This document shows positions 2,294-2,450 of a stretch of DNA of 32,000 bases, in pieces (positions within the stretch are counted from its first letter, which is position 1; each line of letters opens with the position of its first letter). The position numbers were made by a program, and so were the translations under genes. The notes beneath the pieces were generated by a model, which saw only the letters and a program-made list of their open reading frames with translations, was not told the DNA's origin and did no database searches. Origin of the DNA: Candidatus Jordarchaeales archaeon (GTDB taxonomy: Archaea; Asgardarchaeota; Jordiarchaeia; Jordiarchaeales; Freyrarchaeaceae); NCBI GenBank assembly GCA_038858525.1, contig JAWCFL010000003.1, forward strand, positions 28,830 to 60,829, written 5' to 3'.

Positions 2294-2450
2294 GCTGGAC
2301 GCCATGAATCCGTGTTCGGAATGGGAACGGGTAGACCCCACATGCTATGACCGGCGCCGTAGCGCCAGTATTCGGCTTTCCCACTGGCTCCCGCACAGCA
2401 GTACTCGCCGAATCGCATGTGGGCTTGACTTTCACGTCATGGCGCCCAGC
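2294..2450 (-). repeat. inverted terminal repeat (14 bp) plus BHB/BHL processing motif flanking the permuted 5S rRNA
   Basis: GCUGGGCGCCAUGA (2450-2437) pairs with UCAUGGCGUCCAGC (2307-2294) with one G-U. Central 4-bp helix CGUG (2436-2433)/CACG (2314-2311). 3-nt bulges AAA (2432-2430) and GAU (2310-2308). Confidence 0.9.
2309..2430 (-). rRNA. rrf: 5S rRNA gene, circularly permuted (3' half 2430-2362, UACG linker 2361-2358, 5' half 2357-2309)
   Basis: Minus strand reads AGUCAAGCCCACAUGCGAUUCGGCGAGUACUGCUGUGCGGGAGCCAGUGGGAAAGCCGAAUACUGGCGC-UACG-GCGCCGGUCAUAGCAUGUGGGGUCUACCCGUUCCCAUUCCGAACACGGA. All five 5S helices form: I GCGCCGGU/ACUGGCGC, II GCAUGUGG/CCACAUGC, III CCGU/ACGG, V AUUCGGC/GCCGAAU, IV closed by a GGGA loop. 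The loop C signature CCCAUUCCGAAC and loop E GAGUA are intact. Confidence 0.95.

What the first reader, a model, noticed from the sequence alone, without database searches (positions are those of the whole stretch)
2350..2369. Natural 5' and 3' ends of 5S are sealed by a cUACGg tetraloop, suggesting a permanently circular ribosomal RNA
Seen: helix I reads ACUGGCGC-UACG-GCGCCGGU, an 8-bp stem closed by a C-G pair and a UACG loop. Established: cUNCGg is an exceptionally stable tetraloop class, unlike the linkers that are trimmed from permuted tRNA intermediates. Inference: the 122-nt ligated product is not re-opened, and the ribosome carries an end-less 5S ring, possibly for thermostability or exonuclease resistance.
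Basis: partly seen in the sequence, partly recalled or inferred. Interest (0 to 1): 0.85.

Follow-up and report, generated by a model that had tools for sequence, protein, structure and literature searches.

The report
Tetraloop-capped, probably circular Asgard 5S rRNA
This hot-spring Asgard archaeon (genus Candidatus Jordarchaeum) encodes its only 5S ribosomal RNA with the two halves swapped and the normal ends joined by a very stable four-base loop, so its ribosome probably carries a closed ring of 5S RNA; no RNA data could be checked.

Summary
On the minus strand, 2369-2350 reads ACUGGCGC-UACG-GCGCCGGU. This is helix I of a circularly permuted 5S rRNA gene (mature part 2430-2309, 122 nt) flanked by a bulge-helix-bulge (BHB) splice motif.

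The capped helix is not a chance hairpin. In 55 permuted 5S genes from Asgard archaea, helix I is 99% paired and 7 of its 8 pairs show compensatory changes. Of 67 caps, 66 are 3-5 nt, 54 are exactly 4 nt and 41 are UNCG (30 UUCG). UNCG occurs in 14 of 21 family-level lineages.

The own genome, a near-complete genome of the same genus and four single-contig relatives have no canonical 5S gene. The own genome has RtcB ligase and two splicing-endonuclease paralogues.

A short, stable, conserved cap argues that it belongs to a folded, working RNA and is not a disposable linker. Joining 5S ends with a tetraloop is tolerated in engineered E. coli ribosomes.

The claim of a permanent ring remains an inference. 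The thermostability motive is weak, because AT-rich lineages and, as far as I know, wetland-soil lineages have the same design.

The scan has already noted permuted Asgard 5S genes on other DNA (117 notes, at least 81 genomes). I found no published report.

The parts
2475..2489 (-). Promoter: BRE-like GAAAAGC (2489-2483) and TATA box TTTATATT (2482-2475). It lies about 25-30 nt upstream of the leader stem.
   Evidence: Read. The TTTATATT block sits at the same distance in Jordarchaeia, Freyarchaeia and Baldrarchaeia orthologues (alignment). Promoter function is inferred.
2437..2450 (-). Leader strand of the 14-bp outer BHB helix (GCUGGGCGCCAUGA). It pairs with 2307-2294.
   Evidence: MFE fold. 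The outer helix is 90.3% paired in 55 sequences and all 9 modelled pairs show compensatory changes.
2430..2436 (-). Central 4-bp BHB helix strand CGUG (2436-2433), which pairs with CACG 2314-2311, plus the 3-nt bulge AAA (2432-2430). The predicted cut is between 2431 and 2430.
   Evidence: Sequence. A fold forced to contain this helix is only 1.7 kcal/mol above the MFE: -82.8 against -84.5. The cut position follows the established rule for the archaeal splicing endonuclease.
2362..2430 (-). First-encoded part of the mature 5S: helix II 3' strand, helix V, loop E, helix IV and helix I 3' strand.
   Evidence: Rfam half-match. RNAalifold consensus with covariation. After rotation it aligns end to end with canonical Asgard 5S.
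2358..2361 (-). UACG tetraloop that joins the canonical 3' and 5' ends of 5S; this is the finding.
   Evidence: Cap survey of 67 orthologues.
2309..2357 (-). Second-encoded part of the mature 5S: helix I 5' strand, loop A (CAUAG), helix II 5' strand, and helix III with loop C, ending in CACGGA.
   Evidence: Rfam half-match..
2294..2310 (-). 3' bulge GAU (2310-2308, predicted cut between 2309 and 2308) and trailer strand of the outer helix (2307-2294).
2267..2270 (-). T-run (TTTT) about 25 nt beyond the trailer stem; a possible archaeal termination signal.
   Evidence: Read; inferred only.

Best explanation
The hairpin at 2350-2369 is helix I of the genome's only 5S rRNA gene. The gene is circularly permuted: the 3' two-thirds come first, then a UACG cap, then the 5' third.

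Shown here: the permuted order, the 8-bp capped helix and its conservation and covariation, a BHB motif at the gene's ends, and the presence of the splicing endonuclease and RtcB ligase.

Inferred: a short transcript from its own promoter folds so that leader and trailer form the BHB. The endonuclease cuts after the second base of each bulge (2431/2430 and 2309/2308). RtcB joins the new ends into a 122-nt ring, and the junction CACGGA-AGUCAAG restores the canonical link between helices III and II.

Further inferred, as the most likely outcome: nothing re-opens the ring, and the 50S subunit carries a 5S with no ends, whose helix I is closed by a compact YNCG-type tetraloop pointing into solvent.
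For: 1. Anatomy and 5S identity. The rotated sequence aligns collinearly with nine canonical Asgard 5S genes at 54-65% identity.
2. Only 5S gene: the own genome has no other RF00001 match. In four single-contig relatives and a near-complete genome of the same genus nothing passes the cut-off; in the four with any match, the sub-threshold matches lie at the permuted loci, or at the expected spot in the same-genus genome.
3. Conservation: the permuted model hits 108 of 151 Asgard genomes. Every weak hit re-scanned was a canonical 5S. The 67 permuted genes fetched scored above 44 bits and come from 20 numbered families plus one Heimdall record.
4. Structure: helix I is 99.0% paired with 7 of 8 pairs compensatory. 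The outer BHB helix is 90.3% paired with 9 of 9 compensatory. 0 of 500 shuffles reach the observed values, and slid controls pair at 36-46%.
5. Cap: 41 of 67 UNCG, 45 YNCG, 54 of 4 nt, 66 of 3-5 nt; UNCG occurs in 14 of 21 lineages. Even where helix I is extended to 9-13 bp it stays fully paired or nearly so and, in most cases, UUCG-capped.
6. Enzymes: RtcB at 601 bits and two endonuclease paralogues.
7. Feasibility and precedent:
- E. coli ribosomes work with 5S ends joined by a tetraloop, and those ends lie at least 50 A from 23S rRNA (PMC7283268).
- The permuted Thermoproteus SRP RNA is matured by the same route and stays circular (PMC4731332).
- Circular 23S rRNA occurs in mature archaeal ribosomes (PMC12918454).
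Against: No RNA-level data were available for this or any related organism, so ligation, ring persistence and ribosome incorporation are all inferred. A stable cap could be selected only to help the precursor fold, which would not prove that it is retained. The cap class is not universal: there are AUU/GUU triloops in f21, other loops in f8, f14, f18 and f22, and one 35-nt insertion in f9. The central BHB helix is absent from the unconstrained MFE fold and competes with helix III. An earlier check in this scan priced the ring-in-ribosome reading on another genome at only 35/100.
Confidence: 0.62

Rival explanations
1. The ring is only an intermediate. After ligation a nuclease opens the RNA in or near the UACG cap, and trimming gives a conventional linear 5S of about 118 nt with ends in helix I. 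Permuted tRNAs are matured this way.
For: Permuted tRNA genes are expressed through a circular intermediate that is then processed (cited in PMC4267664). Circular pre-16S rRNA, and pre-23S rRNA in many species, are reported to be re-linearised (PMC12918454). The cap sequence varies between families and is not UNCG in about 40% of genes.
Against: tRNAs need a free CCA end; no function of 5S is known to need free ends, and the ends lie far from 23S rRNA. The cap is 3-5 nt in 66 of 67 genes and mostly the compact UNCG class. Extended versions of helix I remain paired and capped. A disposable linker would not be expected to show this. No processing signal such as a tRNA-like element or second BHB is seen at helix I.
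Confidence: 0.2
2. The transcript is cut or trimmed but never ligated. The working 5S is a linear, permuted molecule with a closed helix I and its ends in loop B, held together by helices II and III. Brown-alga mitochondrial 5S is permuted in its final form in a similar way.
For: Brown-alga mitochondrial 5S rRNAs are permuted in the final product, with helix I replaced by a closed hairpin and the ends at the junction (PMC4267664).
Against: The ends here sit in a strict, co-varying BHB. Its cleavage products carry the end chemistry that RtcB joins, and RtcB is present. The predicted junction restores the universal 5S sequence to the base. In the Thermoproteus SRP RNA case the same layout gave circles, and lack of circularisation impaired protein binding.
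Confidence: 0.1
3. The locus is a rearranged 5S pseudogene, and the true 5S gene lies in an unassembled part of this 92.7%-complete genome.
For: The assembly has 63 contigs, and rRNA genes are often missing from metagenome-assembled genomes.
Against: The same layout is the only 5S-like locus in four single-contig genomes. It is conserved across about 20 families with compensatory changes in every helix. It keeps its own conserved TATA box.
Confidence: 0.02

Closest known systems
Permuted, circular SRP RNA of Thermoproteus tenax and T. uzoniensis (Plagens et al. 2015, eLife, PMC4731332)
   Same: A universal non-coding RNA whose gene is circularly permuted. Leader and trailer form a BHB cut by the tRNA splicing endonuclease, ligation restores the canonical sequence, and the mature RNA is a circle. 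The gene had been 'missing' from annotations.
   Different: The RNA is SRP RNA, not a ribosomal RNA, and is known from two species of one genus. Here the design spans most Asgard families. The SRP RNA circle is shown by RNA-seq, Northern blot and in vitro cleavage; for this 5S nothing has been shown at the RNA level.
Circularly permuted tRNA genes (Cyanidioschyzon merolae, Soma et al. 2007; Thermofilum pendens)
   Same: The 3' part is encoded before the 5' part, a BHB lies at the new ends, and a circular RNA is formed by the splicing machinery (cited).
   Different: In tRNAs the circle is an intermediate and the linker joining the native ends is removed. Here the linker is a 4-nt tetraloop closing a co-varying helix, and no free end is needed for 5S function.
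Engineered cp5S rRNA in E. coli (Huang et al. 2020, PMC7283268)
   Same: The native 5S ends are joined by a tetraloop on helix I, and the ribosomes function.
   Different: It is man-made, its new ends in loop C or D are fused into 23S rRNA, and it is not a free ring.
Permuted mitochondrial 5S rRNA of brown algae (Valach et al. 2014, PMC4267664)
   Same: Helix I is a closed hairpin in the working 5S.
   Different: The product stays linear and permuted, with ends at the three-way junction. There is no BHB and no ligation, and it is an organelle RNA.
Circular 23S rRNA in mature archaeal ribosomes (PMC12918454) and low-level circular isoforms of canonical 5S (Danan et al. 2012; PMC12558985)
   Same: These are covalently closed rRNA molecules in archaea; for 23S they occur inside mature ribosomes.
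   Different: The 23S genes are not permuted. The 5S circles seen in Halobacterium and Sulfolobus have variable ends, are minor species and are read as degradation products. The 23S paper states that 5S is not processed through circles.

Membership tests
5S rRNA (Rfam RF00001) | Score at or above the gathering cut-off of 38 bits on the genomic sequence | tested here: not met
   There are two half-matches of 25.2 and 22.7 bits that abut at the cap. The failure is explained by the swapped order of the halves, not by loss of 5S features.
5S rRNA (Rfam RF00001) | Three-way junction with helices I-V and the conserved loop A (CAUAG), loop C and loop E motifs, collinear with known 5S after rotation | tested here: met
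   The RNAalifold consensus gives helices I, II, III, IV and V with covariation. The rotated sequence aligns end to end with nine canonical Asgard 5S genes at 54-65% identity.
BHB-spliced, circularised permuted RNA (Thermoproteus SRP RNA type) | Gene order permuted, with the native ends joined internally | tested here: met
BHB-spliced, circularised permuted RNA (Thermoproteus SRP RNA type) | Leader and trailer form a 4-bp helix flanked by two 3-nt bulges on opposite strands, and the cut sites restore the canonical sequence | tested here: met
   A 14-bp outer helix, CGUG/CACG, and bulges AAA and GAU. The outer helix co-varies in 9 of 9 pairs. The junction equals the canonical 5S sequence. The inner third helix is not formed, so the motif is a relaxed BHB/BHL on that side.
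BHB-spliced, circularised permuted RNA (Thermoproteus SRP RNA type) | Splicing endonuclease and RtcB ligase encoded in the genome | tested here: met
   PF01139 at 601.5 bits; PF01974 at 110.7 and 80.6 bits in two genes.
BHB-spliced, circularised permuted RNA (Thermoproteus SRP RNA type) | Junction-spanning RNA reads; a circular molecule shown by RNase R or gel mobility | not testable with these tools
A scan of metagenome contigs for cap-plus-junction sequence found nothing.
cUNCGg tetraloop hairpin | Loop sequence UNCG closed by a C-G pair | tested here: met
   C2362-UACG-G2357.
cUNCGg tetraloop hairpin | Loop class conserved in orthologues | tested here: inconclusive
   41 of 67 caps are UNCG, in 14 of 21 lineages, but only some have a C-G closing pair. 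Freyarchaeia have CUCG and f21 has triloops.
Permuted tRNA-type maturation (circle re-opened) | The linker between native ends is removed by end-processing enzymes | not testable with these tools
   No RNA data. The 4-nt structured cap and the absence of a tRNA-like processing element argue against it indirectly.

The most novel reading that the evidence does not exclude
In most Asgard lineages, including Jordarchaeia, Freyarchaeia, Odinarchaeia, Atabeyarchaeia, Baldrarchaeia and Heimdall-group members, the working 5S rRNA in the ribosome is a covalently closed ring made by the tRNA-splicing machinery, with helix I permanently capped by a tetraloop. This would be the first natural 5S rRNA without ends, in the closest archaeal relatives of eukaryotes.
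Probability: 0.6. Interest if true: 0.85.

Novelty: new variant of a known kind. Interest (0 to 1): 0.72.

Why it matters
5S rRNA is treated as a universal, essentially constant, linear molecule. A recent paper on circular archaeal rRNAs explicitly excludes 5S from processing through circles. A ring-shaped 5S made by the tRNA-splicing enzymes would add a third circular or permuted universal RNA after SRP RNA and 23S rRNA.

It would also explain why 5S genes 'could not be predicted' in closed Heimdallarchaeum genomes (PMC8813620) and why they are under-annotated in Asgard genomes generally. Rfam and annotation pipelines would need a permuted 5S model.

The capped helix I is the feature that decides between a permanent ring and a transient one. 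Its conservation makes the question directly testable with existing metatranscriptomes and Asgard cultures.

Tried and rejected
2. Metagenome scan. I scanned JGI metagenome contigs for a pattern that only cDNA of the ligated, still-capped RNA could give: loop E, then cap, then loop A, then junction. There were no hits. The pattern does match an artificial circle made from the window. The result is uninformative, probably because the collection is DNA.
3. Rfam at the gathering threshold misses the gene entirely; it appears only with E-value reporting.
4. The unconstrained MFE fold of the precursor does not draw the central CGUG/CACG helix. This is not evidence against the BHB, because forcing the helix costs only 1.7 kcal/mol and the outer helix co-varies.
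5. Weak model hits (26-40 bits) in families f7, f10, f12, f16 and f26 looked like divergent permuted genes. Rfam shows they are canonical 5S, so they were excluded from the cap counts.
6. Thermostability as the driver is rejected as a general explanation, because AT-rich lineages keep UUCG caps.
7. Literature searches for circular or permuted archaeal 5S returned only organelle cases and low-level 5S degradation circles.

Full report
**Observation**

The window's minus strand reads ACUGGCGC (2369-2362), UACG (2361-2358), GCGCCGGU (2357-2350). On its own the stretch folds as this hairpin at -15.4 kcal/mol, z = -3.93. The hairpin also appears in the MFE folds of the 165-nt precursor and of the 122-nt circle.

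**What the hairpin belongs to**

Rfam finds no 5S gene in the window at gathering score. With E-value reporting it gives two half-matches to RF00001 on the minus strand, 2359-2478 (25.2 bits) and 2269-2358 (22.7 bits), which meet at the loop.

The gene order is as follows:
- helix II 3' strand, helix V, loop E, helix IV and helix I 3' strand (2430-2362);
- the UACG cap (2361-2358);
- helix I 5' strand, loop A, helix II 5' strand and helix III with loop C (2357-2309).

Rotated to start at 2357 and without the four cap bases, the sequence aligns end to end with nine canonical 5S genes of other Asgard archaea at 54-65% identity. The hairpin is therefore helix I of a circularly permuted 5S gene, and the loop sits where the 5' and 3' ends of every other 5S lie.

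**Flanks**

- The leader GCUGGGCGCCAUGA (2450-2437) pairs with the trailer (2307-2294) in a 14-bp helix.
- Next comes the 4-bp helix CGUG (2436-2433) / CACG (2314-2311).
- 3' of each of these strands lies a 3-nt bulge, AAA (2432-2430) and GAU (2310-2308).

This is the geometry of the archaeal BHB motif. Cutting after the second bulge base gives 2430-2309, which is 122 nt, and the joined ends read CACGGA-AGUCAAG, the canonical 5S sequence between helices III and II.

The unconstrained fold omits the central helix because CACG also belongs to helix III. Forcing that helix costs only 1.7 kcal/mol.

A BRE/TATA element (2489-2475) lies about 25-30 nt upstream of the leader stem and is conserved in relatives. 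A T-run follows at 2270-2267.

The own genome encodes RtcB (601 bits) and two splicing-endonuclease paralogues.

**Is it the real 5S?**

The own genome (63 contigs, 92.7% complete) has no other 5S-like match. In four single-contig genomes (Freyarchaeia, Odinarchaeia, Atabeyarchaeia, Heimdall-group) and an 8-contig genome of the same genus, nothing passes the RF00001 cut-off. The single-contig Freyarchaeia genome has no match at all. In the other four genomes the only sub-threshold matches lie at the permuted loci, or, for the same-genus genome, at the spot where its permuted gene was found.

**Who has it**

An exact-pattern scan of species genomes returned 18 loci, all from Asgard archaea (Jordarchaeia, Freyarchaeia, Odinarchaeia, Atabeyarchaeia, Baldrarchaeia, Asgardarchaeum, Heimdall-group). 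One record labelled Thermoproteota carries the Jordarchaeia-type gene. The 161-nt query is 97% identical to the locus of 'Candidatus Jordarchaeum sp. LHC_1308', so the window's genome belongs to that genus.

A covariance model of the permuted gene hit 108 of 151 sampled Asgard genomes. Hits below about 40 bits, in families f7, f10, f12, f16 and f26, are canonical 5S genes by Rfam. The 67 permuted genes I fetched all scored above 44 bits; they come from 20 numbered families plus one Heimdall record.

**Test of the capped helix**

On 55 distinct permuted genes aligned to the model:
- Helix I is 99.0% paired, and 7 of its 8 pairs show changes on both sides.
- The outer BHB helix is 90.3% paired, and all 9 pairs are compensatory.
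- The whole structure is 93.6% paired, against 58% in shuffles and 36-46% when partners are slid; 0 of 500 shuffles reach the observed values.

The alignment was fitted to the model, which favours the structure. An independent MAFFT/RNAalifold run on 19 sequences gave the same helices.

I then folded the helix I arm of all 67 permuted genes. The terminal loops were:

| Loop | Count |
|---|---|
| UUCG | 30 |
| UACG | 6 |
| UGCG | 5 |
| CUCG | 3 |
| AUU | 3 |
| UUUG, UUAG, UAA, GUU | 2 each |
| CACG, UUU, ACAU, UAUG, AAGGA, ACG, CUUGA, UCU, GUUA, ACUU, AUUC | 1 each |
| 35-nt branched insertion | 1 |

In total 41 of 67 are UNCG, 45 are YNCG, 54 are 4 nt long and 66 are 3-5 nt long. UNCG occurs in 14 of 21 family-level lineages. 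A random tetraloop would be UNCG 1.6% of the time. Related genomes are not independent, so these counts should be read per lineage.

Helix I varies from 7 to 13 bp. The extensions stay fully paired or nearly so, and most are still UUCG-capped. AT-rich lineages (5S 36-48% GC) keep UUCG with A-U closing pairs.

A linker that is thrown away has no reason to be held at four bases of the most stable loop class on a co-varying helix. The cap is therefore under selection as part of a folded RNA.

Three points from the literature make a retained cap plausible:
- E. coli ribosomes function when the native 5S ends are joined by a tetraloop, and those ends lie at least 50 A from 23S rRNA (PMC7283268).
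- Brown-alga mitochondrial 5S has a closed helix I in its final form (PMC4267664).
- The permuted Thermoproteus SRP RNA, matured by the same BHB route, stays circular (PMC4731332), and circular 23S rRNA sits in mature archaeal ribosomes (PMC12918454).

I know of no 5S function that needs free ends, whereas permuted tRNAs must be re-opened to expose CCA.

Against this, selection on the cap could act only on folding of the precursor, the cap class is not universal, and no RNA data were available. I put the permanent ring at about 0.6-0.65, a re-opened ring at about 0.2, an unligated permuted linear 5S at about 0.1, and a pseudogene at about 0.02.

Resistance to exonucleases, or simply a neutral consequence of the permutation, remains open.

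**Novelty**

Searches of the paper library found no archaeal permuted or BHB-circularised 5S. One paper reports that 5S genes could not be predicted in closed Heimdallarchaeum genomes. Another states that 5S, unlike 16S and 23S, is not processed through circles. Low-level circles of canonical 5S in Halobacterium and Sulfolobus are interpreted as degradation products.

The scan itself has met permuted Asgard 5S genes many times on other DNA: 117 notes in at least 81 genomes. A sibling note on this window describes the BHB. None of the notes I saw included RNA evidence.

The mechanism, a permuted gene plus BHB splicing giving a circular RNA, is a known kind. Applying it to 5S rRNA with a capped helix I across most of a phylum is a new variant.

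Noticed in passing
L076, L087, L088, L092, L093 (families f21 and f9); positions as in alignment A3: Some permuted 5S genes carry extra insertions of about 30-36 nt, either inside the loop C region of helix III (L076, L088, L092) or in the helix IV loop (L087, L093). These could be additional introns or 5S expansion segments.
   Followed up: partly
L090 (family f9): The helix I cap is replaced by a 35-nt branched insertion that itself contains a GC-rich hairpin. This is the only one of 67 genes without a 3-5-nt cap.
   Followed up: no
L109-L122 (families f7, f10, f12, f16, f26): These Asgard families have ordinary, non-permuted 5S genes scoring 54-85 bits with RF00001. Both gene layouts therefore exist within the phylum, and the permutation arose or reverted at least once.
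   Followed up: partly
L032:3654-3974 (Heimdallarchaeota S146_22); G034 and G076: L032 has two permuted 5S copies in tandem about 35 nt apart. Two single-contig genomes of family f5, which I take to be the Heimdall group, each have two dispersed copies.
   Followed up: no
window 24862-24918 (+): A tRNA match of only 57 nt in which the 15 consensus positions of the D-arm are absent from the Rfam alignment. It is probably an intron-split or otherwise non-canonical tRNA gene.
   Followed up: no
L124 and L125 (own genome, contigs C3 and C43): There are two separate splicing-endonuclease catalytic-domain genes of 193 and 198 aa. This fits a heteromeric, broad-specificity enzyme, in line with relaxed BHB sites.
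   Followed up: no
L037 = L008 (JAPDJY010000015.1): A record titled 'Thermoproteota archaeon S9B3_HD70' carries a Jordarchaeia-type permuted 5S whose 161-nt query match is 89% identical to the window, and it falls in the window's family. The label is probably wrong.
   Followed up: no
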